Shown piece by piece: positions 1,661 to 57,409 of a stretch of 64,000 nucleotides of DNA. The DNA lies in contig JBLDXI010000002.1 of NCBI GenBank assembly GCA_047495785.1, positions 1,612,001 to 1,676,000 on the forward strand. The letters are read 5' to 3'. Position 1 is the first letter of the stretch. Each line of letters starts with the position of its first letter. The notes beneath the pieces were generated by a model. The model saw only the letters and a list, made by a program, of their open reading frames with translations, was not told the DNA's origin and searched no databases. Made by a program: the position numbers and the translations under genes. This DNA is from Lepidodermella squamata (lineage: Eukaryota > Animalia > Gastrotricha).

Positions 1661-2640
1661 CACTTCCCTTTTTTGCTTGCTATCATTTTATATTACTTCA
1701 TTACATTATTTTTTGAATAAAACAGATGAAATTAATTGAAGTGATTTTGTCAAGAATCCCAAGATGAGATCGAATAGTACATATCGAACTATTCGAGCTA
1801 TCGCATACATTGCCTCGCGAAAGGTGAAACGTTGGCTTGTAACTTCGATCTTCCAAAATCAGTCAGTAAACAATAAAAGGAAATGAAATAAACCGAAAAT
1901 ATTTACAATTCAGTATCACATCTCTCACTTGAGGGGAAAAATGTAAACAAATCATGCTCTCTCACGCCCGTCAAACCTTTACAAGGGCAAATTTCAGGTA
2001 CTTATCGATCATATAATTTTCGCCCTTTTTGATTATGAATTATACTGCCCGATTGCGAGAGTGACGCATGGGATCTAATTTACCCGAAGCTTCATTTTAT
2101 TATTTGGTCAGCTGCTATTAATCCAACTAAATAAGCCAATTTTTCACGGCCACATGAGAAAGTGTCCAGCCAACTGTGACAAAAAACCGGAATTTTACCT
2201 AAAGAAACGCAGGTCACCCGCTATAGTATATAAGCACTAATATGCGAGGGCGGCTTTTATTAGCGTATTCAGGTATTGAAAAAACTGGTTACTCTCCAAG
2301 GCCAAGTCCATTCTCTAGCTGATATGCTTATAAGAGGTAAGTAGTTCTAGCTTTGATCCCTTGCTCATGATCATGAGCGCAAGGCGAGATCAATTTATTG
2401 GAGCATTTAACATCTTGTAACCCCCATTTCATTATCCCGGCACCCATAGTGTCCCGAGAGTGGCCGCACGGCACCTATTATTAAGGCCTTCCCACAAACT
2501 CGTTTCTTTTTTTTTCTCATGCGTATGCGAGTAAACACATACACATACAGCAAAAAGCATACAGCCCCCGTTCACAAACTGATTTCTTTTCTCCTTGTAT
2601 GTGATTTTTTTCTGGCCGAAGAGGCCACTGAAAAAAGGGA

Positions 2641-2713
2641 TGGCGGCACGTCGAATCGAACCCTTGACGACTTCGCACACATCGATAATTATATCGACAT
2701 GGCTAAGCCGTCA
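2641..2713 (-). ncRNA. Degenerate tRNA-like Pol III element (pseudo-tRNA or SINE head)
   Basis: Minus strand: TGACGGC/GCCGCCA acceptor-like pairing, A-box-like TAGCCATGTCG, B-box GGTTCGATTCG, followed by TTTTTT. Confidence 0.5.
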
Positions 2714-2893
2714 AGCTTAATGTGTGACCTATAAATTAGGCTTTAAGGCAAACAATTCATTGATAAATGCGTCAACAAACAAGTCGAAGATTAATGATTC
2801 ATGCCCGCACTTGACCCATAAAACGCGGATAACTTTTATATAGATATTAGCAACCAATAATTTAGGCTTTTTATAGCGACGGATAAATACGAT

Positions 2894-2968
2894 GGCAACA
2901 TAGTGCAGTTGCTATTGACCGGCCTGTTCAACGGGCGGACGGGGTTCGAGCCCCATCGAAGTTGTTCA
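2894..2968 (+). ncRNA. Degenerate tRNA-like Pol III element (pseudo-tRNA or SINE head)
   Basis: A-box-like TAGTGCAGTTG, T-arm GGGGTTCGAGCCCC, GGCAAC/GTTGTT acceptor-like pairing, followed by TTTTTT. Confidence 0.55.
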
Positions 2969-3759
2969 TTTTTTCAGCGGCCTCTTCGGCCAGAAAAAAA
3001 TCACATACAGGGAGAAAAGAAATCAGTTTGTGAACGGGTCTGTATGCGATTTTTTTTCGCCAACACATACGACCCCGGCAAAAAACTTATTACAAATCAC
3101 ATACACATTTTTTCATACGAGTATGTGCGCAGACCTTTATAAGTTGTATACAAAAATGATTATCGCTAAAAAGTATTCTTATCACCCTATCCCAGTCAAT
3201 TTACCACGCGGTTGTAGATAAGTTTTCATTCATGGGCGTAAATTTGCCTACGAACATACTTTGCCTTGTGGAAAAGCATTATTTTATTCTCAGATAGCAG
3301 ACCCGGTAAAAGTTTATTGTCCACTTTTGTGTCCATAAAACCCACTTATAGTCAGGTGACCTTGGTAACTTTTATTGATTGAAATAAGTATACAGCCTAA
3401 TACCAAAGAATCTTTAGCCGCCGAACAAGGTTTGTTGTACGGCAATAATGCGATTTCACTTCATGGCTCAATTCTAATTAGCCTCGGCAAGTCAATATTT
3501 GCTCGCGGCATTTTTTCATTTTCGGGTACAACGAAAGGTAAGCTCATTTGGTCAGAATTCTTCTGGCTTTCTTAGTTGGAAATCTCGAAATCTGATTCGC
3601 ATAGTCTGCCTCTCTATCCACACCTTGAATGTTCATCGATCACATGGCCCCAGTCTTAGATATAATGTCTACTTTATTTTCCCCGACAAAATTCGCTCCG
3701 AATTCGTAGATATTCGGCATATTTTCTATCATGTTCGTTATAGGGTCCATTTTTACCCA

Positions 3760-5466
3760 ATGGTTAAGTCGACACCTCCGCCTGGTAAGAATGCGGGCCG
3801 CGTTTGCTCATGCATGTGCTGCTGCAAGGCTTTTGTCATTATCGGACTGATATTGGGTCTACTCCTCGCCAGTGCCGGTGTTTTCTTGACCTTGCGATAC
3901 CGCACGATTTTTTTCAACCGCCTGGCATCTGCCATGCTGCTCAGCCCTACAGCGGCGAGTTTTGCTACTTTCAAAAACCCGCCAGCAAATATGTACATGT
4001 CTTACTACTTTTTCAATGTTACGAACCCTGAGGAAGTTCTGAGGGGTGCAAAACCGATTTTGAGAGAAATCGGGCCGTACGTTTACCGAAGCAGTCGAGT
4101 GAAGGAGAATGTCAACTTTGACGACGAATTTACGCAAGTTTTCTATGAAGAACGCCGTTTCTATGTTTTCGACCAGGAGAAATCAGTTGGTTCGGATAAC
4201 GATACATTCTACAACGTCGATCTTGTCGCCTACAGCGTGACGAAAACAGCATATGATGAAGGAAGAGTCAGCGTCCTTGCCAAAACTTTGTCTGTGACCA
4301 AACGCAAGTACCCATTTAAGAACCATGTGATTCGTGAGTTTCTATTTGGCGCGAAGGATAATTTGCTGGAGAAAGTGCTGCCGATTAAGTTCCCGAACCC
4401 TAAAACACGTCCTCCAGCTGTTTTCGGCATTATGGCCGATAGAGCGACCGGGCAGAGCCGAAATGGATCAATATACGCGAACTATACCTTGAGGACTGGA
4501 AAAGGAGATATTAGCAAGTTCCAAACAATTGTGAAGTACAATGATAAGACACGAATGACCACTTGGCCTGGTAACGTAACCGACCCCAGCACTGGCCAGG
4601 AATTCGACCCTAATGTTATCGAAGGCAGTCTGGGCGCCAGCTTCGGTCCGAATGTCAGGGAAAAGTCGATATTAAAATCGTATGCTGCTGACTTATGCCT
4701 AGTGATCGGTTTCACCTACCAGCAACCAAGCAACAGAGGTTTGTCCAATAATTTACGTTTAGGTACTTCAGATATTGAGAAGAGCTTCGTTTCAGGAGGT
4801 GTGGACACACTTCGGTTTGGCCTCAACGTGCCGAACTGGCGGCAATTGGTTGGCGAATTGAATCGCGCCAACTGTGCCGCTGAAGATCGCGATGACCCAG
4901 TGAAATGCCTGCAGGATGGTGTTCTGAACGTTACATCCTGCAAGGGAGGTGCCCTAATCATGAGTCTACCCCACTTGATGGCCGCAGATCCTTTTTACCA
5001 GGTATTTTCACGATTCTGCTCCAAAATTTGGCTTAGATTGTTATTTCAGAATACAACAGAGGGTTTGAATCCTGATCCCGAGAAGCATTCAATCATGCTA
5101 GACATCGATCCGTTGACCGGAACAGCCCTGCAGGCTTCGAAGCGAATGCAGATCAATATTCGCTTTACGGCTTTCAAGCACCAGAACTACACCAACTTGC
5201 CGCCCTTCACACTGCTCCCAATCATGTGGATCGATGAGTCCGGCGGAATTAACGAGGCCGGCCTTGAGGGATTGAAATCCCGCGCTCACAGTGGGTTCAA
5301 TATGCTGCAAAACATCTCCTATGCCCTTCTGATAACCGGAATTTCACTAATTCCTGCTTGCATCATCATCTACCTGGTTTGCAAGCAACGCTATTCTTCG
5401 AAGCAGCGTGATCAACTACGATCAGGCAATGGCGGCTTCGATGAGAAACGGCCATTGAACGCTTGA
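3760..5466 (+). CDS. CD36/SCARB (class B scavenger receptor, LIMP-2/SR-BI-like), copy 1
   Basis: N- and C-terminal TM helices; YFFNVTNPEEV, EIGPYVY, SLPH and IDPLTG...KRMQINI motifs. ATG 3760; introns 4739-4795 and 5002-5049 inferred from the paralog; probable 5'UTR intron ~3539-3743. Confidence 0.92.
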   Translation: MVKSTPPPGKNAGRVCSCMCCCKAFVIIGLILGLLLASAGVFLTLRYRTIFFNRLASAMLLSPTAASFATFKNPPANMYMSYYFFNVTNPEEVLRGAKPILREIGPYVYRSSRVKENVNFDDEFTQVFYEERRFYVFDQEKSVGSDNDTFYNVDLVAYSVTKTAYDEGRVSVLAKTLSVTKRKYPFKNHVIREFLFGAKDNLLEKVLPIKFPNPKTRPPAVFGIMADRATGQSRNGSIYANYTLRTGKGDISKFQTIVKYNDKTRMTTWPGNVTDPSTGQEFDPNVIEGSLGASFGPNVREKSILKSYAADLCLVIGFTYQQPSNRGLSNNLRLGTSDIEKSFVSGGVDTLRFGLNVPNWRQLVGELNRANCAAEDRDDPVKCLQDGVLNVTSCKGGALIMSLPHLMAADPFYQVFSRFCSKIWLRLLFQNTTEGLNPDPEKHSIMLDIDPLTGTALQASKRMQINIRFTAFKHQNYTNLPPFTLLPIMWIDESGGINEAGLEGLKSRAHSGFNMLQNISYALLITGISLIPACIIIYLVCKQRYSSKQRDQLRSGNGGFDEKRPLNA

Positions 5467-5687
5467 ATTTTCAAGTAATCCGTGATGAAAGATGAATGGC
5501 TAGTCGTATGCCTGCCAAAATGTTATGTTTTATTTTGTTAACTCTCCTCGCAATATTAACGCGTGGTGAAATTAATTTGGTGTTCCGGTCGATCTTTCAA
5601 TATGCCGACTGAATACCTCGTCAAATTTTAGCTTGAGTTTTCAAACAGTGGATACAAAAAATAAAAACAATACCATCAGTTGAGACA

Positions 5688-5835
5688 ATCAGTGTTTGTT
5701 AGCGTTTTGTAGGCTATTTCCCGTTTTTTCATCTCCGCCTTCAGCCATTTGGCGCGTCTCGATGACAAGCTGAAGCCGATATTGTCATTTATGCGACCTG
5801 TCAAAGGGCTGCGAACCAGAAACAATATTTACAGG
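5688..5835 (-). pseudogene. Collapsed remnant of the SLC18B1-like MFS gene
   Basis: ATCTCCGCCTTCAGCCAT matches ~14919-14936 and is joined directly to GACAAGCTGAAGCCGAT.TTGTCATT.ATGCG.CCT.TCAAAGGGCT, which matches ~15719-15766. Confidence 0.75.
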
Positions 5836-6551: not shown

Positions 6552-8218
6552 ATGTCCAAGTTGACTCCTCAGCCTGGTAGGAATGCAGGCAGCGTTTGCT
6601 GCTGCCGGGTCTTAGTTATCATTGGTGTGATATTAGGATTAGCACTTGCGACTGAAATACCGCTTAGCCTGACCGCGGCGAGTTTTGCTACTTTCAAAAA
6701 CCCGCCAGCAAATATGTACATGTCGTATTACTTTTTCAACATTACGAACCCTGAGGATGTTTTGAGGGGCGCGAAGCCGATTTTGAAAGAAATTGGGCCG
6801 TATGTTTACCGAAGCAGTCGAGTGAAGGAGAATGTCACCTTCGACGACGAATTTACGCAAGTTTTCTACAAAGAACGTCGATTTTATTTCTTCGACCAGG
6901 AGAAATCAGTTGGTTCGGATAACGATACATTCTACAGCATGGATCTGGTCGCATACAGTGTGACGAAATCAGCATATGACGAAGGGAGAGTCAGTCTCCT
7001 CTCTAGAACGTTTGATGTGACTAAACGGAAATCCCCTTTCAAGTCCCACGTGATTCGCGAGTTTCTATTTGGTGCTAGGGATAATTTGCTGGAGAAAGTC
7101 CTGCCGATGAAGTTCCCGAACCCCGAAACCCGTCCTCCGCCTGTTTTTGGCATTATGGTTGACAAAGTGAACGGGCAAAGCCGAAATGGATCAATAGACG
7201 CGAACTATACCTTGAGGACTGGAAAAGGAGATATTAGCAAGTTCCAAACAATTGTGAAGTACAATGATAAGACACGAATGACCACTTGGCCTGGTAACGT
7301 AACCGACCCCAGCACTGGCCAGGAGTTCGACCCTAATGTTATTGAAGGTAGTCTGGGTGCCAGCTTCGGTCCGAATGTCAAGAAGGAGTCGTTGCTGAAA
7401 GTTTTCGATGCTAATTTGTGCCTAGTCATGGGTTTAACTTATGAAAAACCGAGCAAAACTGGTGAGTAGACATGATTAAACACGAAATCTGCTTCTATAA
7501 ATAGATCTTATTATAGGTGGTGTTGACACTCTTCAATTTGGTGTTAACATAACTAACTGGCGTAAGTTTGTAGGAGAATTGAATCGAGCTAGCTGCGCCC
7601 CGGCGGATCGCGACGATCCGACTAAATGCATGCAGGATGGTGTTTTGAACGCTACATCTTGCAAGGGAGCCTCTCTAATCATGAGTCTACCTCACTTCAT
7701 GGGCGCTGATAAATTTTATCAGGTAATATTCATGGGTTTATTATTTGCCTGAATTTTGAGCTGATTTTGTCTAGAATACAACCGAGGGTTTGAGCCCCGA
7801 CCCCGAAAAGCATTCAATCGTGCTCAATATTGATCCTCTAACCGGAACTGCACTTTCTGCCGTGAAGCGAGTGCAGATCAATTTTCGTTTTATGAGTTTC
7901 AAATTCCGGCAATACAAAAATTTGCCGCCATTCACTCTGCTCCCGATTATGTGGATCGAAGAGTCGGACGGTATCAAAGACGTAGACCTTGGCGATGTAG
8001 CCAATAAGGATGTACAAATAGTAAACACGTACGAGCGTGTTCTTGGCATGTGTCTTGACCTCATTAAGCTGACCACCTGGCTATTCAATTTGGTTTCCTG
8101 CAATTATGGTGGAATGTTTTGTTTCGATGATGACTTATTCAATCCGATTCTGGGTTTTTCTTATTTTGTGATAGATCTTCCTTCTAGTTTGCAAATTCCA
8201 ACCCAATCCAAATTCTGA
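6552..8218 (+). CDS. CD36/SCARB scavenger receptor, copy 2 (in-frame deletion after TM1, divergent C-terminus; may be pseudogenising)
   Basis: High identity to copy 1; introns 7462-7516 and 7723-7774; similarity stops after WIEESDGI (~7975). Confidence 0.8.
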
Positions 8219-8473
8219 CTTTATAACGCAATAGGTAATATGGCGTGGTGGGCAAAATGTTGTCCCTAGATCACAACCGAATTTGTGTTTTCCACTTCTA
8301 AAGACTCTAAATACTAAAGGAATGTTTGAACAATAGGTGCTGTGCCCTATTAAACCTATGCATCATTAGACCAGTGAATCGCAAGCTTGAAAAATGCAGC
8401 GTTTCATTACCTTAATTCCTAGATTTCGCAAACCTAATAAAATCCGACGATAAAAGCCCCTTAAAAACCATTG
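8195..8473. repeat. ~270-bp dispersed direct repeat, copy A
   Basis: Shares TCCAACCCAATCCAAATTCT, TTTGAACAATAGGTGCTGTGCCCTATTAAAC and TTCCTAGATTTCGCAAACCTAATAAAATCCGAC with 13191-13450. Confidence 0.85.
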
Positions 8474-9623
8474 TGAATGTGAATATGGAGTTCGACCTTG
8501 ACCGAACGATCGCAAGTCATGACGAATAGCAAAATATGATCGGCACCAAGTGCCTATTGAAAACAAAATATTATCTTGTTAATAATGAGACATGAGATGA
8601 AATTCATTTGAGTCGTCATTTTCTTGTCTGGACTTGCCTTGATTCTTCTCACAACACTGGTGTCAGAAGCGGCCGGGTCTTTTATCAGGTATTCGGGCCC
8701 ATATGACTTGCCCAAATAAGATTTTTTAATTCTTGTTCAATGCAGATAGCCGACAATTGTTCGCGACCATAATATAGAAGAGGGGCCGGACAAAGTCAAG
8801 GAGGAGGACTCAGAGAAAGAGGAAGGTCACGGCCAAGACGCTGATTGCTGATAGTTCTCGTTGGTCGGCCGCTAAAAAAATACGAAAAGCTTACCTCAGA
8901 CCCGAAACTCAATCGCTTATTTCCCATGTTGACGAATGATGATCGTGAGCCGAGAGGATTCCCATCGAGAGGAATGCCGAGAGGCACCCCGTGATCGCTG
9001 ATCGTCACCCTCCCCTAAACCTTTGCGGTAAAACGGTTCCTCTTGTTGTGCGATTATTACCATCACAAGTCAACAATGAACCAGCGGAGGAGGAAAAATA
9101 AAACTTTTCATTGTTTCATTGTTTCATTGTTCAATAACAATATCGAAGAAATCAATTGGCAACGAAACAACTACCGTACTTCTTCTCAGTCACTGGAAGC
9201 TTTCATTCATGACTACTTAATATGGGAACTTGGTTTAATAGATTTGTCTGTTGATGATTGATGATATTCGGGTTTTTTGAAGATACTAGCCCGGATAGAG
9301 TTAAATTGTTTCGAGAAGAATTGATGAAACGTATCAACAACGATTTTTCCCAATGCAAGGAAACACCACAACAGCTACAACTTATATTTATCCTGGACTT
9401 ACCGAGTTTAAAGGAAAATTAACTCAAGCAATAGTAAATGTGTCTTCTTCAGTGTCGTGGAAGCTGGAGTTTTACTTTCAGTGATTCAGTGATAAGAACA
9501 GAATAATACAACGATAACCATCACTATGAAATTTATTACTTTGAAATAACGTGTTTCGTAATGTTGCGCTGGCGTATAATATATACACGACAATACGTTT
9601 TCTAATAGATGACAGAATGTTTG

Positions 9624-10627
9624 TTATCTGCGCGCTTCCTTAAGATAGACCGCTCGTAGTTCTTTAAGATCTATTTGAATTTCGCCTGCTCCTTCGGGTT
9701 GGTCAGCGTGGAAGTACAAGTACTTAGGTGCGATAGATAAAAATAAGTAGTCGTCCGAATCCCTGCTAGTGCCAGTGCCGGTAAGAGCGCCAAATTCGCT
9801 AGCATCTGCGTCATCAAGGGCAACCGTTCCAAAGCTTACAGAGGCGCATCGTCTAGGTCTTCCATTTTCAGTCCGACTGTACGCCACAGCTACCATTGGA
9901 AATCCACTTTCACGTTCTTCATAGATGCGAATAATAAAAACATAGGAGATCGAGTTATCTGGTCGAATATATCTGTTGGCGACGTCCAGAAAAGGCTCAA
10001 CATGATGAATCATAACTTCGAAAACAACTGACGGAACTGTTTCAACTTCTTGGGTGTTAGGGTTCTTTTTACCATCGCCACGGAAAGACCCATCAGGTTG
10101 CCGACGCTCCTTTTCGCCCAGTTTCACATCAGCCGAACCAGTGGACAGAATGGTTTTGCTATGATTTTTAGAGTAATCTTTGAAAACATAACGTATTTCA
10201 TCGACCAGCGCTTGGTGCTCACGGCTATTGCCCAGTTGATGGATGAAGACGTTATCGTTGAGATAGGTCATTTTGCTAATTCCATGCTCCTTGAAATGAA
10301 GATAAAATGAATAATTTGAAGGGAAAAGAGTTTATTTAAAAAACTTACCCTGAAGACATCCTCATGTTGTTCATCATAAAACTTCACACTAACACCACTA
10401 GCCAATGGGACTTCCACGAGATTAGCGTACTTCTGATTCAGAGTTGCAAACTCTTTAACTTTTGTCTCAAAAGACCAACTGTTAATATCATTAGGGTCGA
10501 ACACTGGAACACCGAAACAACCGATACTAAGAGAAGTGCTGGTAGAATTGCCATTAGTAGCTAGAACTTGTCTTTTGACAGACGATACTGATGTAGAAAA
10601 GCCGTCCTCACATGCAACTTCAGTCAT
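9624..10627 (-). CDS. Uma2/DUF820-like PD-(D/E)XK restriction-endonuclease-fold protein (~314 aa, 2 exons)
   Basis: GT-AG intron 10348-10290 joins ...DVFR to EHGISKMTYL... in frame; motifs REHQ, QPDGSF and PSVVFEV follow the Uma2 H...PD...hhEV pattern. Confidence 0.7.
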
Positions 10628-11374
10628 TTTTTGCTTTGCTACTATTCCTATAAAATAAGAAAGACTGTGTCATAAATAAAACATACACAGCAATTGCGCA
10701 ACCGACGCTTGGTGCCGGGCGGAACTACTGTGGGCCACAACAACACAACACAACAACAGTTTGTCGCGCGCGACAGAATTTTCAAGCGTGACTATTTGTG
10801 TGTGTCGCGTCGCTGTTTTCGTGCGACACACCAGCGACTGTTGAGATTCGCCAGTAGCAGTTAGCATAGTAAAATAATTTCTACGGAAAATTGTTGAAGA
10901 AATCACAAGAGACATCAGTCTGGTTATGAGAGAAAACTTAGCTAAAACGATGTTTATTGGTGAACGTCAAGTGTTGTTATGAATGACGACGATAAACGCA
11001 AAAAGCAAGTAATAATCGACGTGGCTCGCTAGTGTGCGCGCGTGCTCGTTTTTATTACCCCCTAATAATGTGAGCCGCCGACGAAAAGATGCGAGGAGGT
11101 CAGGTCAGCTTTCAAACAGCCAGACGAGGTGGCCGTTATTATTGCTGCCTGCTTTACAATTTACATGACGAAAATTAATTTTCCAATCAGGATGGCTTCC
11201 GTTGAGCGTTGAGCCAGGTGTAAATTGAGTGAAATTCGGAAGGTTTAGAGAAGTGAAGGTGCAAGAACGAGAAGCTCTTCAATTTAAAACACTCGTGTCT
11301 TTATCATATCCTCTATGGTCTTAATTGAAGAGGAAGGTCGACGCTACAATTTTTAGCAAACATGTTTTCCAGTT

Positions 11375-13190
11375 ATCATCATCATCATTTTATTGTTTTC
11401 CTTCTGATTGCACCATTTTTTGTCTTAATTTTATAAAAGAATAACAGTATTTAGGAGTGGATTTATAAATGGGCAAAAAGAGGATCGAGCGCAGAAGTAA
11501 GGCGTTGAGATAACTAGGAATCCAAGAATCGTCCCTCTTCAAGTCAGCACACGTTTTGCCATTTGCTGGAAAATACAGAAAATACGCCAAACCCCACTTT
11601 TCACTTATTTTCGGTCAATTAGTTTTGTTTAACTAAGGCCAAATTTGTAAGGACAGGCCATTCTTCCGATATAAATTTTTTGCACGAGTTGACAAAAAGA
11701 TTTATCGAAGTAATGTTAGTGATAGAGGCAGGTAGAAGGTACCATAATTTGGTTGTTCTAATAGCAAAGCTAAAGCCCCTAGGGCAAAGTGAATGTTGAG
11801 GAATTGTTAATTTGTTATTAGAATGATGTCGAGTAGTAGAGAGATTAGGTTTGAGAAAGAAAGTATCGTATTCTAGAGGATGAGACATATTATTAATTAT
11901 TTTGAACGCCATCGTAAGGTCGCGGATTAACCATCTTTGGTTTAAGGATAGCAATTCAAACTTAGCCAGCCTCTGAATATAGTCGAGGGGAGCCATAGGG
12001 GGAGATATAAATCTAGATGTGAAGTTTTTTAAGCACTTTTCTAAAAGATTACGATGCTTGAATAAATAAGGCTGCCAGACGCATGAGGCATATAGTAGGT
12101 TGGGTAAGACATAATAATTGAAAGCGCGAATTAGAACTGAGTGATTTATCTGGTGGAAAAAGAGTTCAGGATCAAACCTCAAAGGCGACGGCTTTTAGCG
12201 TCTAGTTTGTTGCAGTGAGACGAGAAGGTCAACCTGTTATCTATGATGACGCCAAGATCGCTAGTTTCTGTCACCGAGTTGATAATGTGAAGACCGAGTA
12301 GATAGTGTTATGGAGTAAGTTCTTAGATCCAAGACGAAGAATGAAACATTTTTTAAGATTAACTGATAGTTGGTGGGAAGAGAAAAAAGAATAGATAGAG
12401 TTAATATCCTGCTGTATATCAGCCGGATTTGTACCCAATTTGGGGTAAATTTTTGCATCGTCAGCAAATAATCGAATAATGCAAGATTTCACGCAGGATG
12501 GCAAGTCATTTATGAAAAGAAGGAATAAGATTGGGCCCAGCACGCTTCCTTGGGGCACACCGGAAGTGACTGGAGACCACTGACAATGAGCATTGTTAAT
12601 AACGACGCGTTGAGAACGACCAAGTAAAAAATTAGACATCCAATCAAGTAGGCGACCAGAAATGTTGTAGTGTTCTAGTTTATTTATCAGTTTTATGTGA
12701 GAGACGGAATCGAAGGCCTTTTTAAGGTCAAAGTAAATGCAGTCAACGGGGATGCCCCTGTCAAGTCTAGACGACCACTCGTTGATATTCTCGAGTAGCT
12801 GCATTTCGGCACTGCGGCCTGATAGGAACCCAAACTGTTCGGGAGATAGAATATTAGATTATTTTTAGTGAGATGAGATACCATTTCAATCCGAATACAA
12901 GACTCCATAACTTTACATGGTATACTGGTTAGGCTAATGGGCCGATAGTTTTCGGTTGAAGAGGGGGAGCCACTGTTTTTGAAAATAGGTACAACGTTAG
13001 CTAATTTCCAACAGGCTGGAAGTACACCGGATTCGAAACTTCTAGAAAAAATTAACGAAAGAGGAAATGCGAGAGAATCGGATAAGTTCTTTAATATTGT
13101 GGGGTGGACACCGTCAGGCCCCATAGAAGAATTTGCTTCGAGATTACGTAATAAAGATTCAATAGTTCTAACAGGATAAGCGGCTTGTGT
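11375..13190 (-). mobile_element. 5'-truncated, frameshifted non-LTR retrotransposon (CR1/L2-like RT)
   Basis: RT motifs GPDG, YRPISLTS, YFDLKKAFDSV, GVPQGSVLGP and FADD split over three frames; 3' end has AATAAA followed by an (ATG)n tail at ~11375-11393. Confidence 0.92.
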
Positions 13191-13450
13191 TCCAACCCAA
13201 TCCAAATTCTTTTATGGCGTGGCGGGCATAATGTTGTCCCCTAGATCACAGCCGCATTTTATGTTTTCTAAACATTGCTTCCACTTATAAATGCTGAACG
13301 GCCGTTTGAACAATAGGTGCTGTGCCCTATTAAACGTGTATCCCGTCACCCTTGAATGCAAGCTTGAAAAGTGAAACGTTTTTTTTTACCTTCATTCCTA
13401 GATTTCGCAAACCTAATAAAATCCGACAATAAAAGCCACCTTGAACCATT
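13191..13450. repeat. ~270-bp dispersed direct repeat, copy B, abutting the LINE 5' junction
   Basis: Colinear similarity to 8195-8473. Confidence 0.85.
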
Positions 13451-13815
13451 TGGTTAAGTCCTCACTTGGTGAAAATGGCTCGCTGCTCGCTGATAAAAAT
13501 ATTCGCAATATCGTCCACGTGCTATAGCTGGCACGCGACAGAGGACTGGTTAGGGAAAAAGTTCATTTGGCTTGAGACCAACGTTGCAATTTCATTAACA
13601 ATTTATTGTTCGTTCATTTTGTTTGAATGATTTTGTTCTTTGATTTTTTCGTTGCTTGTTGCTATGGCTCTTGCCAAAACATGATCTTTAACCTATGTAA
13701 AATGGAAAAATAGATAAGACATCAACATGATGCTTGTTGGAACGCCTACTAATTCAATACACTTCCTTGCCACTCGTTTCTAGATAGCTAGCTGTTGTCA
13801 TTTTGCCAATGATTT

Positions 13816-14716
13816 ATGGCGTCTCACTTGACGAAATGTTTTGTGTTATCCCTGGTTTCACGCCGACTTCTTTGCAGTAGCAGCTACAAAAACATAATAG
13901 TTGAAAAGAAGGGCGCAAAGAATGACGTCGGCTTGATTCGTCTCAATCGCCCTAAACAAATCAATGCGTTGAGTCGCGAGCTGATGAGCGAGCTTACAAC
14001 GGCCCTCAAGACCTTTGATAGCGATCCAAATGTCGGGGCTGTCGTTATCACTGGATCCGAACGCGCGTTTGCAGCTGGAGCTGACGTTACCGAAATGCAG
14101 AATTTGACGTTCACCGAAGTGACGAAAAGTGACTTCCTCGGGTATTGGCACGAAACTACACGCATTCGAAAACCGATAATTGCCGCTGTTAATGGTTTCG
14201 CAATCGGCGGTGGATGTGAACTGGCAATGATGTGCGACATCATTTACGCGGGTGAGAAGGCCCAGTTCGCGCAATCTGAAGTCCTCATTGGTATTAGTTT
14301 TTCAACAAGAACGAGAGAACTAATGGTATCAGACACATTTTACAGGCACCATCCCCGGCGGCGGTGGAACTCAGCGGTTGGCTCGCGCCATGGGAAAGTC
14401 GAAAGCAATGGAAATGATTTTGGCTGGCGAGAGAATCAACGCTCAGCAGGCTGAAAAGGCGGGATTGGTCGCCAAAATTTTCCCTGCCGATAAGCTCGTC
14501 GACGAATCTATCAAAGTTGCTGAAAAGATCGCTAGTCTTTCTCAACTGGCAGTTGCCTACGCGAAAGAAGCTGTGAATCAATCGCAAGAGCTGCCGCTTG
14601 GTGAGGGTAATTACCTTGAAAAGCGTTTGTTTTATGCGACGTTTGCAACCGCTGACCGAAATGAAGGTATGTCGGCTTTCATCGAGAAGCGCCCGCCGAA
14701 GTTCACTCATAACTGA
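13816..14716 (+). CDS. ECHS1: Mitochondrial short-chain enoyl-CoA hydratase
   Basis: Presequence-like N-terminus; [14 protein letters not shown], and [12 protein letters not shown] across intron 14291-14345; C-terminal [10 protein letters not shown]. Confidence 0.95.
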
Positions 14717-14863
14717 GAGACCTTTGTTGAACTTAATGTTGATCTAGCGAAGAACTGATAATTATTAATGACCCTGTGATAGGATTTCCTCAGCTTTTCC
14801 GATGTTGTGCCTTTAGTTAACGTTCTTTTATTTATAGGTCGTTCAAGTTGTAAAATAAAACCA

Positions 14864-17800
14864 TTAATTGTGACATTCAGTGTTTGATAATTTGCTGTAG
14901 GCGTTTTCGCGCTTTGTCATCTCCGCCTTCAGCCATGTTGGGGTGTCTCTTTTTTCGACGTTGCAGTCGATTAGTCGTTTCATGTCCTCGCGTTTTGCCT
15001 TTCGTTTTTCTGCAAATTTGACGATAATACTGCCGAAAAGGGCAAGCGCTACTACTACAGCGGAAATTCCGATGGAACCAGACAAGATCGAACTGGTGAC
15101 GGGGTAGCCGTATTTATCAACGCAAGGGAACGAAAAAGCAACACCGATGAAGCCGCCAAGAGTGACCAGACTGTTGTAAATCGCTGAAAAAATTAAAATT
15201 ATAATAAAATTTCAAAAAAATTCAAAAAAATACCAGATACAACGGAGCTTGACTTTAGATCAATTCCTACGTCTTCTTCCATGTCGAAGGCTTCGAAAGT
15301 TGAGGCAGTTGCATCGCTTACCAGTCCCATCGTTATTTCGCCCGGCTTCGGTCCACGTTTAGATTTTTGTAAAATATCGAACATCGTTTTAGACATGGGA
15401 CCCATAATCATGGCGAGAGCGATGCGTGAAAGGATGATGCCAGTGATGACGACAATGGCCAAGCTCAGAAGTGAGCCATCGTCTTGAACACCGCTCGATA
15501 CATTAAATTCATTAATTATTGAAGAAAGATTTGATGGAACCGCGGGAGTAGCTGTTTCCGGCATGTTAGCGGTCGAGTTCGGTTCGAGAATAACCTGGAC
15601 TGCCCATGAAGAAGGCCCGATGAGCTGGTAAGCTGGGCAGCCTATGAGGCACCCAACCTAAAAAATCTCGCAATTAACAGTGTTTTACTCATAATTCAAC
15701 TCAAATACCAGAATAAACGACAAGCTGAAGCCGATTTTGTCATTGATGCGGCCTATCAAAGGGCTTGTTATTGCGAACCAAGCTCCTGCGCCAAACAGGG
15801 CGACGCCAATTGCACCAGAAGATAATTTGAATTGGGACAAGTGATGAACACTCAGTGTGTTGACGAAAGTAGCGGCGGCGTAAGACATCAGAAAAGCGAA
15901 ACACGTCGCCCATGCTACCGGAGAGCGGAGGAGATCAGCCACGGGCCACCTTTGCGTTAAAAACACAAAGAGATGGATAATATAGCAATGATAAAATAGC
16001 GCGTGAAATAAAGTCATTCATTTTTCGCTTAGTAGGTATTTTTCATTTGACGCAATGTGTGTGAGCCCCGTGTTGTGCGTGCAAATTAATCAAGTAATAA
16101 AGGGTGTTTAGTGCGAAAGAACATTCTCGAACATTCTGGAATTTTCTAGATTTTTCTAAATTTTCTCGATTTTTCTAGAATGTTCTTTACTGAGTATATA
16201 TTCCCGACGTCCGCTGACCCTCTGCATCCTCTCTCAAAGCTAATTCGAAGTTACAATCTTGAACTATTACTACAAGTTTTCAACTGCGCTTTTAAACCAC
16301 TGTTTCATTGATATTGCTTGATTACCACTGCAATGTCTTCATCAACATCTCGAGCTATTGGCATTGACCTGGGCACGACGTATTCTTGCGTCGGTGTCTA
16401 CCAGAACGGCAAGGTCGAAATCATCGCCAACGACCAGGGCAACCGAACAACGCCCAGCTACGTCGCGTTCACCGACACCGAGCGACTCATCGGCGACGGC
16501 GCCAAGAACCAGGTCGCGATGAACCCGCAAAACACGGTTTTCGACGCGAAGCGCCTCATCGGCCGGCGGTTCGACGACCCGATCGTCCAAAGCGACATGA
16601 AGCACTGGCCGTTCAAGGTCGTCAACGAGGCGGGCAAGCCGAAAATCGAGGTCGAGTACAAGGGCGAGCCGAAACGATTCGCGCCCGAGGAAATTTCATC
16701 GATGGTCTTACTCAAGATGAAAGAGACCGCCGAGGCGTACCTGGGTCACAAGGTGCGCGATGCCGTCATCACGGTTCCGGCCTACTTCAACGACTCGCAG
16801 CGACTGGCCACGAAAGACGCTGGTGCCATTGCTGGTCTCAACGTCATGCGAATCATCAACGAACCGACGGCGGCTGCTCTTGCCTACGGTCTCGACAAAC
16901 AACACGAGTCGCAGGAGAAGAAGGTCCTAATTTTCGATCTTGGTGGTGGTACTTTCGATGTTTCGATCCTGTCAGTCGATGGCGGTGTCTTCGAAGTGCT
17001 GGCTACGTCAGGTGACACTCACTTGGGTGGCGAAGATTTCGACAATCGCATGGTCAACTTCTTCGTCGACGAATTTAAGCGGAAGTACGGCAAGGACATC
17101 TCGAAGAACTCACGAGCCCTCCGCCGCCTTCGAACCGCCTGCGAACGCGCGAAACGAGCCCTGTCGAGCAGCACCGAGGCCAACATCGAGATCGACTCGC
17201 TGCATGAAGGCGTCGATTTCTACTCGAAAATCACGCGAGCCCGTTTCGAGGAGCTCTGCAACGACTTGTTCCAGAAGACGATGCAACCAGTCGAGCAGGC
17301 CCTCCGCGACGCCAAGCTGGACAAATCGAAGATCGACGAGGTCGTGCTGGTCGGCGGTTCGACTCGCATCCCGAAGGTTCAGAAGCTATTGACCGACTTC
17401 ATGGGCAAGCCTCTCAACAAGTCGATCAACCCGGACGAGGCCGTCGCTTATGGCGCCGCTGTTCAGGCCGCGATTCTCTCAGGCGTGACCGACAACACTG
17501 TCAAGGACGTCCTGCTGGTCGATGTTATCCCGCTCAGTCTCGGCATCGAAACCGCTGGTGGAGTGATGACCAAGTTGCTGGAGCGCAATTCGAAAGTGCC
17601 GACTCGAGCCACGCAGACCTTCACAACGTACTCGGACAATCAATCGGCCGTGACGATCCAAGTCTACGAAGGCGAGCGGGCGATGACGAAGGACAACAAC
17701 TTTTTGGGCCGCTTCGATCTGACTGGAATCCCGCCGGCGCCTCGTGGTGTCCCGCAAATCGAGGTCACCTTCGACATCGACGCTAACTGCATCCTCAACG

Positions 17801-19173
17801 TTTCGGCGGTCGAAAAGGCGACTGGAAAATCGAACAAGATCAAAATCACGAACGAGAAACGGCTGTCGAAGGAAGAAGTCGAGCGAATGGTGGCTCAGGC
17901 CGAAAAGTTCAAGGCGGACGACGACAAACAGCGCGAACGAGTTGCGGCTCGAAACGGTCTCGAACACCTTGCCTACTCGTACAAGCAAGCTGTCGAAGAT
18001 GCGGGCGAGAATCTATCGGCTAGTGACAAGCAGACGGTCAAGGACAAGTGCCAGGAGGTGATTTCTTGGCTCGATCGCAACACGACCGCCGAGAAGGACG
18101 AAATCGAGTACAAATCGCAGGAATTGCAGAAGGCCTGCTCGCCAGTTATGACGAAACTGCATGGCGGCAACTCTTCGAGCAACACTGGCAAGACCGATGG
18201 CGGCAATCAGTCACGCTCGGCTGGCTCGACGTCAAACAACCGTGGCCCAACTGTCGAAGAAGTTGATTAAACCTAACGTGAACTAAATAGACTGACTTTT
18301 ATCTAGTGATTCAATTTTCCATGTTGATGTGAATTTTTTGAAATAAAAGCTTGAAAAAATGACAAATAGTTTTGATGTCAATTTTTTATGGAAATTGTGA
18401 GTATTAAGCTTACGGTTGGCTTGATGCAGAATTATTATCGGCAGCGGAGTTCGGTAGGTGATAGGCAACGAAGAAGCCCACCAAGGGTAGTAGCAAGCCG
18501 AACGGCAGTGTTGTAGCTGGAAACCCGCCAAACTCATAGAGAAATCCGCCAGCTAAAGGTCCAATAATCTGACCAAGCTGGTAGGAAGTTTCCAAACAGC
18601 CGTAGATGAATGAAACTCTATCGGGATCAAAAATTGGGGCGATTGCGTATAACGAGGCGCTAATTTTGATTATTCCGAGACTAAAAAGAACAGATGTCGG
18701 ATAGATTAAAGCGCGGAACGAGTTACCAGCTGGCAACCAGTGACTGAAACCTGATGAAAATTCAGAATTTTAATCTAAAAACAAATTGACCGAAAAATAC
18801 CAAGTAAAATCGTGCTAATCGTAGCTAAGGCAACACCGATGGATAAAATTAGTTTCGCCTGGACCTTGGTGATCAAATAACCTAAAATAAATCCGAAATT
18901 AAAATTCATCTATAATAGTTTTATTGAGAATTTACAAGCAACGGGATACAAAGCCACGGAAGATATGTAGATGCAGGCGTAAAACAGCCCAATTTCCGTG
19001 AGAGAAATGCCTTTATTGCCTGCTTCGGGTACAAAAAATGGCGCAAAGGTTGCCAGGTTGAATCCGAGTAGGAATAAAGCCGCACATTCGAGGGACAAAT
19101 AAAGTCGCCATTTTTTCAAACTTCTCGACGGCTTAAGAGGCAATTCTTCCGCTTCAACGATTTCTATGCTCAT
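14864..19173 (-). CDS. MFS transporter, SLC18B1-like (6 exons, with a 2.46-kb intron at 15950-18413)
   Basis: TM-rich exons: [47 protein letters not shown]; phase-consistent junction CAA CC|G TGG across the long intron. Confidence 0.85.
16118..16202 (+). promoter_or_regulatory. Heat-shock element array (~14 alternating nGAAn/nTTCn units) plus TATA box
   Basis: aGAAcaTTCtcGAAcaTTCtgGAAttTTCtaGA...TTCtaGAAtgTTCt with ~10-bp periodicity; TATATA at 16195, ~140 bp upstream of the hsp70 ATG. Confidence 0.92.
16333..18270 (+). CDS. hsp70: Inducible cytosolic Hsp70, intronless
   Basis: [22 protein letters not shown] and [12 protein letters not shown] signatures; C-terminal GPTVEEVD; no introns; upstream HSE array. 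Confidence 0.98.
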
Positions 19174-51963: not shown

Positions 51964-53142
51964 TTAAGCTGCAATATCAGCAAGAGATTCCTGACGACAA
52001 CAAACTCCAGGAAAATTATGAACAAAAAAATCGGCAATCCAAACAACGGCAATACCAGCAATGTAAAGCATTTGATAGTTCAATATCGGGCTACTCTGAG
52101 CTCGAATAGCGAAGAGCGAAATTACCATGCCGATGAAGGCGAAAATTTCAACGATGAAAAACGCCAGGGTGACCTTGACCTCATGCAGGTCTTTGTACCG
52201 CTTCGACAGCGGCAGAACTGTGAAGCAGACAACGGCATGCCATAGAAAAATCGGGAAGAAATGAATCATTTTAATAACAGTCATCGTATCCCGCCACTCG
52301 AGTTCCTTCGCATAGCCGTACGATGAGTAGATCATGAGCATTGCCAGGAAAATACAGTTGATCAGCGCCAATATGCAGTGGATCAATTTGATTGAAATCG
52401 AAATTTTTTCGCATTGCAGGCGAACAGATTTGTAAACACTGCCGCCATCTTTCAAGCAAATGAAGGTTGTAGGCTTGCGAAGATTAGCCGCCTGAGCTAC
52501 ATGGAAGACAAAGGTCAATACTGAGAATAATATCGCCCCTTTAAGCGACAGGCCAAATGGGATTTTCGGAGGTCGACCTTCAGGGAAAATGTAGCTGATA
52601 GCTTCAAGGCTATCGGCAGATTCCGCATTGTTCAGCTCGATATACACTAAAATCGCCCCGATTGCGATAAGCCACGCTGCTCCTATTGCGTAGAAAACGG
52701 CTATTCCAACGAATTCCATCGAGTTTTTGCACGAATCTTTCGTTGTCAGGCCGAATGTGAGGCAAATGTGGATTAGGATGATGATAAGTGGCGCTTGGAT
52801 CGGGAAAATCGCTTTATTGCAAGGTATCTTGCATTTACTAAGCGCATCTTCGACTGATTCCGAGGTAACCTCAATCAAGTAGGACTTTGATTTCTCAACC
52901 CGTTGGCTGCTGTTCAGGGGTCCATGAGACGTTTTTCCGGTGAAGTTGTTGTAAGAGCCATGGTTGACGTAGTAAAGGGCTGGTTCGAAATCGTATTCAC
53001 ATCGAGTGATGCAGGTTGATTTTTTAAGGTAGCCAAAAGCAGCCCAGAAAATTGTGATGAATAGCATAACACTGAGGAGACAATTGACCACCTTAAGCGC
53101 AATTGCCAGTCGGTCATTTCGAAACATTGATGAATCAGCCAT
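51964..53142 (-). CDS. Orphan multi-pass membrane protein (~8 TM), intronless
   Basis: 392-aa ORF with about 8 hydrophobic segments in two similar blocks. Confidence 0.7.
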   Translation of the reverse strand: MADSSMFRNDRLAIALKVVNCLLSVMLFITIFWAAFGYLKKSTCITRCEYDFEPALYYVNHGSYNNFTGKTSHGPLNSSQRVEKSKSYLIEVTSESVEDALSKCKIPCNKAIFPIQAPLIIILIHICLTFGLTTKDSCKNSMEFVGIAVFYAIGAAWLIAIGAILVYIELNNAESADSLEAISYIFPEGRPPKIPFGLSLKGAILFSVLTFVFHVAQAANLRKPTTFICLKDGGSVYKSVRLQCEKISISIKLIHCILALINCIFLAMLMIYSSYGYAKELEWRDTMTVIKMIHFFPIFLWHAVVCFTVLPLSKRYKDLHEVKVTLAFFIVEIFAFIGMVISLFAIRAQSSPILNYQMLYIAGIAVVWIADFFVHNFPGVCCRQESLADIAA

Positions 53143-53515
53143 ATCTCAATCCATAAACTATAATTCAAGAAAATTGAAGGCAGATATACAGTGATGCTGC
53201 GTGTTTTTTTGGAGAAAATGTGGTGCAATGCTTTTACGCTATGCAATATATTACTATATATGCCTCTGAGTACGCATCCTATATCGTAAATAGCTATCGG
53301 CTTCGTAGTACCGCGTATAGACCGCTTGTTTATGTACTGAGCGAGTAAAAAAGCGTGCGCGATCTATTTTTAGCGCAATATTTCTATTCATATATAGCCG
53401 CCATATCGTTGGAGTTTCGCTTCCGGGATTAAGGTGTCTCATGTTCAATAACAGAATTCGTACCAGCTCTTGTTTATTTTACCTCTTCAAATGATGCAAA
53501 AATGAGAAATTAATT

Positions 53516-55495: not shown

Positions 55496-55569
55496 AACTT
55501 TTTTCCGAGAATTAAGGCCTGCGATCGCCCTTGCTTGCGATCGCAGGCCTTAATTCTCGGAAAAAAGTT
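55496..55569. repeat. Perfect 33-bp inverted repeat with an 8-nt loop
   Basis: AACTTTTTTCCGAGAATTAAGGCCTGCGATCGC-CCTTGCTT-GCGATCGCAGGCCTTAATTCTCGGAAAAAAGTT. Confidence 0.95.
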
Positions 55570-56072: not shown

Positions 56073-57409
56073 CCCTTCTTAAGGAATTATTAATTTTCTA
56101 AGATTTTTTGGCCATGAAATGTGACTCCGCCTCTCATTTTAGACTTTCTGATCATTTTTTCCATTTATTTTCTTTGTTTGCGCTACTTATGGGACAGGTG
56201 TAAATATTTTTTGGCTAGGCTCCTGTTACATTTTAGTAAGAAATCAAATGAATTTTCGGAGTATTCACCCGGGAAGCACGGTTCGGTTATTCCTGTTTTT
56301 ATTCAAAATATACCCAGGTTTTCTCGTCACAATTTTTTTTCCAAATTTTCTGACCGTTGAAATGAGCAGAGCTATGAAGGTTTATTTTTTTTCTTTGTTC
56401 AAACTACGCAAAGAGTTGTTTTAGACGCGTGTGAGAAATAATGCTGCCATACCTGATACCTGTGTTTCGCCGTGAAATAACAACCTTAATAATTATTAGT
56501 CATTATTGTTTTTATGTAATTTACACCATTTAAACGCTCCAGCTTAACATAAGCGTACTCCGTGGACGGCCTGAAGAGAAAAGAGCAGCAGGAAGAGTGA
56601 TGATGATGATGATGATGACTAATGGTAGTTAGTGTCGTTGCCAAGTCGCTACCTCAACTTATATTGTCTCGCGTCCACGGCTGTGATAAGCGATCTTATA
56701 TAGCAACGAGTCTTTAAATTTTAATAAAATGACGCGTTTACAGATGATATCAGGTCATCATCGTTAATACAGATTTGCAGAGATAGTTTTATGCGAAAAG
56801 ACAGCGTGTTATAAGCTGCTGGTTATGCTTTTTCACTCTAGTACAACATGACAGTTATACGGCCGGATGCGCGTTGCCGCGGTCGCGGAAGTTTATCGCA
56901 GATTTACCTCGATGTTCCTGTCTCGCTGGCTAAGATCTTATTCACAAAGCTAATGTTCCGTAACTCATCATGTCGCGCGCTGCTTTGTTAACAACACAGT
57001 CACCTTGAATCTTTGCATCCGCAGTTCACTTTATATTGAAATGGGGACGCGGAACGATCTGATGAACCCACCTTCGAGTTCATAATACTAGTTTAATTAA
57101 CAGGTGTAAAAGATCGAAATCAGCCTGCATTCGGGTCTTCGTAGATCATTGATAACTCTGTGTTAAAGGACGCAGATTGTCGGATAAAATTAAGACAATA
57201 AATAGAGGAAACCCCCGCGAAATTATTATAAAATAGGAAAAATAAAGTGAAAAGTAAAATTTTCAAATGAGATTCGAAGTTTCCGATAATGAAAGATTTC
57301 TCAAAATTGGATGGATCAGCCTAAATTGAAAATAAAATAAAAATTTATGCCGGCTTGAAGTTCGTTGGAGATTCGTCTTTTTAAATCAAATTTGGAACAG
57401 CGTGTCCCA

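What the first reader, a model, noticed from the sequence alone, without database searches (positions are those of the whole stretch)
9624..10627. Intact, spliced Uma2-type restriction-endonuclease-fold gene in an animal genome
Seen: a two-exon ~314-aa gene with a host-style 59-nt intron and an acceptor-like site just before the ATG; motifs IHQLGNSREHQ, QPDGSF and PSVVFEV. The residues after the catalytic E are VMIHH. Established: Uma2/DUF820 nucleases are mainly bacterial, and related REase domains are toxin modules of Crinkler-type effectors in fungi, oomycetes and protists, with links to transposons; they are not standard metazoan genes. Inference: a horizontally acquired or transposon-derived nuclease now domesticated, possibly an undescribed defence, effector or selfish system. 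It sits in the most rearranged part of the window.
Basis: partly seen in the sequence, partly recalled or inferred. Interest (0 to 1): 0.8.

Follow-up and report, generated by a model that had tools for sequence, protein, structure and literature searches.

The report
Multicopy Uma2-like nuclease in an animal
An animal genome carries a predicted two-exon gene, with several diverged and partly broken versions, for a protein predicted to fold like bacterial Uma2 DNA-cutting enzymes; its nearest named relatives are in slime moulds and fungi rather than animals or bacteria, so it was likely picked up sideways and likely persists as a self-duplicating gene, but it lacks one usual catalytic residue and cutting is untested.

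Summary
The gene is real as read: minus strand, exon 1 10627-10349, 59-nt GT-AG intron, exon 2 10289-9624, 314 aa. The exon-2 model (pLDDT 78) matches solved Uma2/DUF820 structures at Z 12.5-14.1. His118, Pro158-Asp159 and Glu184 are kept. VMIHH after the Glu is not itself odd for Uma2; the real anomaly is that the family's relocated Lys is Val196, with Arg199 one helix turn away. Relatives are eukaryote-type, not bacterial: unnamed ENA proteins (78%, 31%), a Dictyostelium multigene family (27%) and fungal clusters; no credible named animal hit among 1.84 billion representatives; donor unresolved. A DNA run holds at least three versions (83-91% alike, some frameshifted); a likely RNA run from another study holds exact exon pieces but no splice junction. 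There is no Crinkler header, signal peptide, fused NTPase, terminal inverted repeats or transposase. Best reading: a header-less, Crinkler-kin Uma2-like nuclease, likely acquired from a microbial eukaryote and kept as a small birth-and-death family acting inside the animal's own cells. 'Domesticated' is not shown. Crinkler-type genes in animals have precedent (Medea1, AACRNL), so this is a new variant, moderately interesting.

The parts
10349..10627 (-). Exon 1, 93 codons: about 45 low-complexity residues, a predicted helix (W52-Y68) and the start of the Uma2 N-terminal subdomain; no signal peptide or LxLFLAK header
   Evidence: P0002 carries exon-1-like residues 9-30 in frame with the C-terminus
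10290..10348 (-). Predicted 59-nt phase-0 GT-AG intron, 22% GC
   Evidence: a divergent genomic version keeps it with a 3-nt insertion inside it; no junction contig
9624..10289 (-). Exon 2, 221 codons plus stop: Uma2/DUF820-like restriction-endonuclease fold
   Evidence: Pfam Uma2 E 4.9e-5, 23.3 bits, under the cut-off of 27; model pLDDT 78, pTM 0.80; Z 14.1/13.8/12.5 to 9y1l/1wdj/3ot2; Foldseek E 1.8e-5 to 6okh
10215..10217 (-). His118, the helix-1 His of the H-PD-EXX-K site
   Evidence: alignment A4, numbering; definition in PMC551604
10092..10097 (-). Pro158-Asp159 (PD half-motif)
10017..10019 (-). Glu184, invariant in 17 of 17 aligned rows; followed by VMIHH
9972..9983 (-). Helix-2 segment V196-A-N-R199: Val where Uma2 relatives carry the relocated Lys/Arg; Arg199 one turn later
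10648..10665 (-). Pyrimidine tract plus AG, 20 nt before the ATG: trans-splice acceptor or end of a short 5' intron
   Evidence: sequence; not tested by reads
9532..9537 (-). AATAAA, candidate poly(A) signal 86 nt after the stop
8196..8473 (.). Left copy of an old direct repeat (about 79% alike) that brackets the gene and a LINE remnant; right copy 13190-13452
   Evidence: origin unresolved
11617..13189 (-). Broken LINE-type retroelement (RT fragments), neighbour of the gene
   Evidence: RVT_1 E 1.2e-25; frameshifted ORFs; diverged copies in X1

Best explanation
The locus is a predicted two-exon animal gene for a stand-alone, eukaryote-type Uma2-like protein, likely acquired sideways from a microbial eukaryote and present as several diverged versions, that likely acts inside the animal's own cells as a metal-dependent DNA nicking or cutting enzyme whose breaks would favour its own duplication. 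Shown: gene structure in the sequence, fold match of the model, His118/Asp159/Glu184 kept, relocated Lys replaced by Val, several versions with some frameshifted, no header, no transposon ends. Inferred: splicing, expression, lateral origin, Mg binding by Asp159/Glu184/His118, Arg199 (or His188/His189) standing in for the Lys, and the self-duplication step, which is borrowed from the untested hypothesis of Feder and Bujnicki for bacterial Uma2.
For: Fold. Site: D and E are the only practically invariant residues of COG4636 and Lys-less variants exist (PMC551604 passages); both are kept here, plus the His. Kin: 6 hits at E<=1e-3 among 1.84 billion, of which 4 unnamed-source or JGI, 1 Dictyostelium, 1 dropped as a repeat artefact; Atlas neighbours of homologues P0001 and P0009 are Mucoromycota/Ascomycota clusters. 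Multiplication: at 9766-9794 two other contigs differ from the window's contig at every listed site; pieces are 83-91% alike; indels of 7+1, 7 and 60/5 nt break some versions; P0002 is an internally deleted version; the 4 Dictyostelium members include two on one contig nine locus tags apart. Constraint: 61 of 70 identical in the catalytic core against 85 of 120 elsewhere versus P0001 (Fisher p 0.012, region chosen after looking); 9 of 17 codons differing in two or more contigs are silent against 23-28% expected (p 0.026). Host link: identical contigs in X1 and identical pieces in X2, two studies, both also holding identical neighbouring host DNA. Precedent for selfish Crinkler-type genes in animals: Medea1, AACRNL.
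Against: One divergent contig shows 2 silent against 11 replacement codons, and all 31 codons together (11 silent) do not differ from neutrality (p 0.23); only 40 of 102 difference rows were shown. One of the ~90% versions may be the other haplotype's allele. No Uma2 protein has shown activity in any paper read. The tree names no donor (7 of 14 inner branches open), so ancient retention with losses is not excluded. Exon-1 support comes from 2 of 8 homologues that are one cluster. Copy number seems small, unlike the mass expansions in cyanobacteria.
Confidence: 0.4

Rival explanations
1. Co-opted defence nuclease: the intact version is kept by the host to cut invading DNA or RNA (viruses, transposons, ingested microbes), and the broken versions are ordinary turnover of a defence family.
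For: Core constraint; fast change in helix 1 (8 of 20 identical against P0001); weak match to PADLOC candidate PDC-S17, E 2.5e-4, 1 of 17 rows; CR proteins proposed to target invasive DNA (review section).
Against: No sensor or targeting domain; PADLOC match is weak and to an untested candidate; no expression data by tissue or infection.
Confidence: 0.22
2. Catalytically dead or weak nucleic-acid-binding protein: the fold and acidic residues persist but loss of the Lys has ended cutting.
For: Val196 at the Lys position, also Val or Leu in P0001 and P0003; 6 of the 14 eukaryote-type rows listed have no Lys/Arg there (window, P0001, P0003, P0016, P0018, P0022); exon 2 is net acidic (-6).
Against: His, PD and E are all kept, also in P0003 at 31% identity; relocation of the basic residue within helix 2, often to Arg, is documented (PMC1913061 passages).
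Confidence: 0.2
3. Passive cargo: the gene has no role in its own spread and was copied by LINE-driven or repeat-mediated segmental duplication in an unstable region, most versions decaying.
For: LINE remnant and old direct repeat bracket it; neighbours are duplicated too; frameshifted versions; repeat-rich flanks in X1.
Against: The intron is kept in another version, so not a retrocopy; core constraint.
Confidence: 0.14
4. Contaminant or chimeric assembly of a fungal or protist gene into an animal scaffold.
For: No listed contig bridges the gene to SCARB or ECHS1; GC3 0.39 is the lowest of 16 coding stretches (0.44-0.73).
Against: Identical sequence in two studies nine years apart that both hold identical host neighbours; identical-copy contigs in X1 have depth 54-55, like adjacent host contigs at 46-49; host-sized intron.
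Confidence: 0.04

Closest known systems
Uma2 / DUF820 / COG4636 (PF05685; PDB 1wdj, 3ot2, 6okh, 9y1l)
   Same: Fold (Z 12.5-14.1, rmsd 2.3-4.3 over 141-158 residues), H-PD-E residues, hydrophobic residue at E+2, stand-alone architecture, tendency to multiply.
   Different: Below the Pfam cut-off; 10-16% identity; relocated Lys is Val; longer C-terminal part with an SFG motif shared only with eukaryote-type kin; spliceosomal intron; animal host.
Eukaryote-type Uma2-like REases of Mucoromycota, Ascomycota and Dictyostelium discoideum (KAM9975966.1 and kin)
   Same: 22-31% identity over the whole domain, PD, PTVVxEV, YxR, SFG and DL motifs, about 300-340 aa, multicopy.
   Different: Most keep Lys/Arg four residues before the helix-2 aromatic; this gene with P0001 and P0003 has EVMxxH...RY instead; found in an animal.
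Crinkler/RHS (CR) effectors with REase toxin domains (Zhang et al. 2016, known here only through PMC5289972, PMC6131194, PMC11342252)
   Same: REase-fold domain in eukaryotes, fungal kin, repeat-rich unstable setting.
   Different: No Ubl/LxLFLAK header, signal peptide, NTPase or kinase; numbered CR-REase clade could not be assigned.
Tribolium Medea1 element (CR-NTPase8 + CR-REase7) and AACRNL
   Same: Crinkler-type toxin-fold genes living in animal genomes, with broken copies.
   Different: Medea1 has an NTPase and the REase7 His at E+3 (here Ile; His at E+4 and E+5); AACRNL is an ADP-ribosyltransferase inside hAT/mariner elements; no transposon ends here.

Membership tests
Uma2/DUF820/COG4636 (PF05685) | Restriction-endonuclease fold closest to 1wdj/3ot2 | tested here: met
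   the top four chains of 48,161 are Uma2/DUF820-type or annotated REase-like (Z 10.7-14.1), next Z 7.8
Uma2/DUF820/COG4636 (PF05685) | Pfam gathering score of 27 bits | tested here: not met
   23.3 bits for exon 2; 9 of 17 aligned rows match at E<=1, best 2.4e-6. Filed as Uma2-like, not as a PF05685 member
Uma2/DUF820/COG4636 (PF05685) | Invariant Asp (PD) and Glu, with helix-1 His | tested here: met
   H118, P158-D159, E184
Uma2/DUF820/COG4636 (PF05685) | Lys relocated to helix 2 (PD-EXX-K; most but not all members) | tested here: not met
   Val196 at that position by motif register; the profile alignment to 4 bacterial rows is too weak to fix the register alone (prob 1.2%)
Uma2/DUF820/COG4636 (PF05685) | Another basic side chain filling the Lys position in space | not testable with these tools
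   Arg199 is one turn away; model coordinates not available
Uma2/DUF820/COG4636 (PF05685) | Nuclease activity | not testable with these tools
   needs assay; predicted only for the family itself (PMC551604)
Crinkler/RHS (CR) effector | N-terminal Ubl header with LxLFLAK and HVLV motifs, or signal peptide | tested here: not met
   no motif, no N-terminal hydrophobic stretch (crude scan); no Pfam hit on exon 1
Crinkler/RHS (CR) effector | Alternative alpha-helical header | tested here: inconclusive
   exon-1 model pLDDT 37.6, one helix 53-67
Crinkler/RHS (CR) effector | REase coupled to NTPase or kinase (common, not universal) | tested here: not met
   314-aa single-domain gene; no such ORF in 7000-14000
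Crinkler/RHS (CR) effector | Match to a numbered CR-REase profile | not testable with these tools
   Zhang et al. 2016 not held
CR-REase7 / CifB / Medea1 type | His three residues after the active-site Glu | tested here: not met
   E+3 is Ile; definition from PMC11342252 section 19
DNA transposon cargo or transposase gene | Terminal inverted repeats around the gene | tested here: not met
   longest inverted arms in 7900-14000 are 25 nt or less and imperfect; related versions leave the window's flank at different points
DNA transposon cargo or transposase gene | Target-site duplication or empty site | not testable with these tools
   no genome held

The most novel reading that the evidence does not exclude
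An animal lineage has captured a fungal/amoebal Uma2-type nuclease with a rewired active site (His-His loop plus Arg in place of the Lys, shared with P0003) that works as a transposase-free, self-duplicating or Medea-like selfish nuclease in the germ line; it would give the first tractable animal model for what Uma2 proteins actually do.
Probability: 0.15. Interest if true: 0.75.

Novelty: new variant of a known kind. Interest (0 to 1): 0.45.

Why it matters
Uma2 proteins are abundant in bacteria and fungi yet no activity is shown in the papers read; a spliced, apparently expressed, multicopy version in an animal shows that the eukaryotic branch reaches animals and supplies a natural Lys-less active-site variant to test. 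If it cuts DNA and drives its own copying, it adds to Medea1 and AACRNL as a Crinkler-kin selfish gene of animals. If it is dead or passive, it is one more patchy lateral acquisition.

Tried and rejected
No whole genome is held, so paralogue loci, flanks and empty sites could not be read. Bacterial origin: no relative in genome contigs (111 pattern matches, 0 confirmed), viral contigs (5, 0), metagenome contigs (200, 0 and 85, 0), plasmids (only E>=2) or two cyanobacterial plasmids that do hold Uma2 genes; these scans find close relatives only. PDB sequence searches gave nothing; NCBIfam and PHROGs nothing useful. P0004 (Scirpophaga, 14 repeats, E 5.7e-7) was dropped as a low-complexity artefact and P0019 as a poor fragment. 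Tree of 17 rows: unresolved, long branches meet. Splice junction: no contig shows it; X2 has almost no cover over the intron and none in 9380-9520 or 10602-10760, which is only a lack of cover; no holder is on record as RNA. The many fold-back joints in X2 were read as library chimeras. The 5-kb bracket repeat as LTR or TSD: 79% alike, no clear ends; the joint 8194-13212 in X1 and X2 is better read as a third related copy or the other haplotype than as an empty site. Flank hairpins: z -0.3 to -1.4, not significant; no Rfam or tRNA hit. Exon-1 fold too poor to search. Exact look-up of 5 window proteins found none. Literature searches found no paper on Uma2-like genes in animals, but the key paper (Zhang 2016) is not held. 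No complex prediction was run: no binding claim is made.

Full report
Observation. The minus strand carries an ATG at 10627, a donor AGG|GTAAGT at 10348, an acceptor TTTCAAG| at 10290 and a stop at 9626-9624, giving 93 + 221 = 314 codons. Nine donor/acceptor pairs keep an open frame; the 59-nt one has the best sites. The intron is 22% GC and close in size to the 55-nt ECHS1 intron that a contig of run X2 skips. Exon 1 is likely coding: it extends the alignment to P0009 by 17 points (0 of 300 shuffles) and to P0003 by 5 (10 of 300), while intron read-through adds nothing; for 6 of 8 homologues there is no gain above shuffles. P0002, an internally deleted relative, has exon-1-like residues 9-30 in frame with the C-terminus. 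No contig spans the junction. An AG acceptor lies 20 nt before the ATG and AATAAA 86 nt after the stop. The host is an animal by gene content; an earlier unchecked note calls the genome nematode-like, which I did not test.

Fold and site. Exon 2 scores 23.3 bits on Pfam Uma2, under the cut-off of 27. Folded with a 17-row alignment it gives pLDDT 78, pTM 0.80. Foldseek's six matches at E<=0.001 are chains of 6okh, 9y1l, 3ot2 and 1wdj; the wide structural search ranks 9y1l, 1wdj, 3ot2 and 3ijm first of 48,161 chains (Z 14.1, 13.8, 12.5, 10.7; next 7.8). Feder and Bujnicki (PMC551604; abstract, passages and Discussion read) define the site as H-PD-EXX-K, with a hydrophobic residue where EXK has Lys, the Lys moved to the next helix, only D and E practically invariant, and Lys-less variants known. 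So VMIHH after the Glu is not in itself a defect. Here His118, Pro158-Asp159 and Glu184 are kept; the helix position that holds Lys in the Dictyostelium rows and P0020 and Arg in P0006, P0015, P0017, P0021 and P0031 (four before the helix aromatic) is Val196, with Arg199 one turn on; 6 of the 14 eukaryote-type rows listed lack Lys/Arg there. Relocation of the basic residue into this helix, often as Arg, is described for other families (PMC1913061 passages). Activity is therefore open.

Relatives. HMMER over 1.84 billion representatives gave 6 hits at E<=1e-3: P0001 (78%) and P0002 (79%), unnamed ENA proteins that look like versions from this or a close species (inference); P0003 (31%, ENA, unnamed), which shares EVMxxH...RY; P0005, a Dictyostelium discoideum family of 4 (27%); P0006 (JGI, named Uma2 family, 28%); and P0004, a moth repeat protein dropped as an artefact. 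Word-index searches added unnamed JGI/Logan proteins only (1 of 198, 8 of 4823, 9 of 4010 candidates). Atlas searches with P0001 and P0009 return eukaryotic clusters, commonest Mucoromycota and Ascomycota, ahead of bacterial Uma2 (scores 0.94; TM 0.71 against 0.58 for P0001); the Atlas names only the commonest phylum, so animal members are not excluded. No prokaryotic or viral relative was confirmed. The tree of 17 rows is unresolved. Lateral gain from a microbial eukaryote is the simplest reading (my estimate 0.65), with no donor named; retention with many losses remains possible. I recall Uma2-annotated proteins in bdelloid rotifers and springtails; this comes from no call.

Copies. DNA run X1 holds contigs identical to the window's gene and others 83-91% alike; at 9766-9794 two other contigs differ at each listed site, and the summed depths imply three different ones, so at least three and perhaps four versions exist. 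Some are broken (7+1-nt deletion near 10482-10490, 7-nt insertion at 10529, 60 nt replaced by 5 at 9717-9778). One keeps the intron with a 3-nt insertion inside it. One ~90% version may be an allele, because identical contigs across 8000-10571 have depth 46-55 against 92 at ECHS1 (inference). Versions leave the window's flanks at different points (9486, 9523, 9598; 10634, 10736). One loose end just upstream of a version's ATG contains a 12-mer found once in the window, exactly, at 9430-9441 in the 3' flank, a weak hint of a head-to-tail array elsewhere. Constraint is modest: core 61 of 70 against 85 of 120 identical to P0001 (p 0.012, post hoc), 9 of 17 shared codon differences silent (p 0.026), but 2 of 13 in one contig and 11 of 31 overall (p 0.23), from 39 coding rows of the 40 shown out of 102.

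Expression and linkage. X2 (guessed RNA, another study, 2015) has a spliced ECHS1 contig and pieces identical to both exons at depth 3-4, plus pieces of other versions: likely low transcription, DNA carry-over not excluded. No listed contig bridges the gene to SCARB or ECHS1, but co-occurrence with identical host DNA in two studies, matching depth and a host-like intron make contamination unlikely. GC3 0.39 is the lowest of 16 coding stretches.

Surroundings. A broken LINE lies at 11617-13189; a 79%-alike direct repeat (8196-8473, 13190-13452) brackets gene and LINE; X1 shows repeat-level depth in 8908-9134, 10724-10950 and 11405-11631. No terminal inverted repeats, RNA gene or transposase were found.

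Mechanism. Most likely (0.4): a stand-alone Uma2-like nuclease that binds metal through Asp159/Glu184/His118, uses Arg199 or the His pair in place of the Lys, nicks DNA inside the animal's cells and so favours recombination and duplication, giving a small birth-and-death family. This extends the hypothesis in PMC551604's Discussion, itself untested. Rivals: host defence (0.22), dead binder (0.2), passive cargo (0.14), artefact (0.04).

Comparison. It works like Uma2 by fold but misses the Pfam cut-off and the Lys, so it is filed as Uma2-like. It is kin to Crinkler REases but lacks header, signal peptide, NTPase and kinase, and is not CR-REase7. Crinkler-type genes in animals have precedent: Medea1 (PMC11342252, passages and section 19) and AACRNL in seven animal phyla (PMC12957317, abstract, Introduction, section 6 and Discussion). 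PMC3424549 (passages) lists Uma2 as bacterial; PMC4102429 (passages) notes one fungal case; PMC6131194 (passages) covers Rhizophagus REase5/6/8; PMC5289972 (passages and section 11) is my source for Zhang et al. 2016, which is not held and whose profiles and supplements may already cover this clade. Searches found no paper on a Uma2-like gene in an animal.

Verdict. Observation confirmed; interpretation partly supported; new variant of a known kind; interest 0.45.

Noticed in passing
window 16333-18270 within 14864-18769: An intronless HSP70 gene (+ strand, GC3 0.73) lies between exons of an MFS transporter gene on the opposite strand, apparently nested.
   Followed up: no
window 5664-5810 vs 14852-14949 and 15719-15765: Fragments of the MFS gene are duplicated between the two SCARB/CD36 genes.
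   Followed up: partly
window 3939-5266 and 6662-7991: Tandem SCARB/CD36 pair, 81% alike at DNA level.
   Followed up: partly
window 2552-3054: MITE-like element with about 70-87-nt inverted arms, 93-97% complementary.
   Followed up: no
window 55496-55569: Perfect 33-bp inverted repeat with an 8-nt loop.
   Followed up: no
window 10762-10775 and 10724-10950: Palindrome TGTCGCGCGCGACA upstream of the gene in a stretch matched by 11 contigs in X1; similar CG-palindromes at 56971 and 59195 are not above chance.
   Followed up: partly
window 11405-11631: Very high-copy short repeat (summed depth about 16,000 in X1) abutting the LINE's 3' end; no Rfam or tRNA match.
   Followed up: partly
window 14025-14551: X1 holds a second ECHS1-like sequence with 84 differences in 525 nt: a paralogue elsewhere.
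   Followed up: no
window 51964-53145: Intronless 392-aa multi-pass membrane protein with an internal duplication and no Pfam hit; resembles the orphan eight-helix family noted elsewhere in this genome (e1-10289120).
   Followed up: no
P0002/P0008: 70-aa relatives that join exon-1-like residues directly to the C-terminal 53 residues: an internally deleted derivative.
   Followed up: partly
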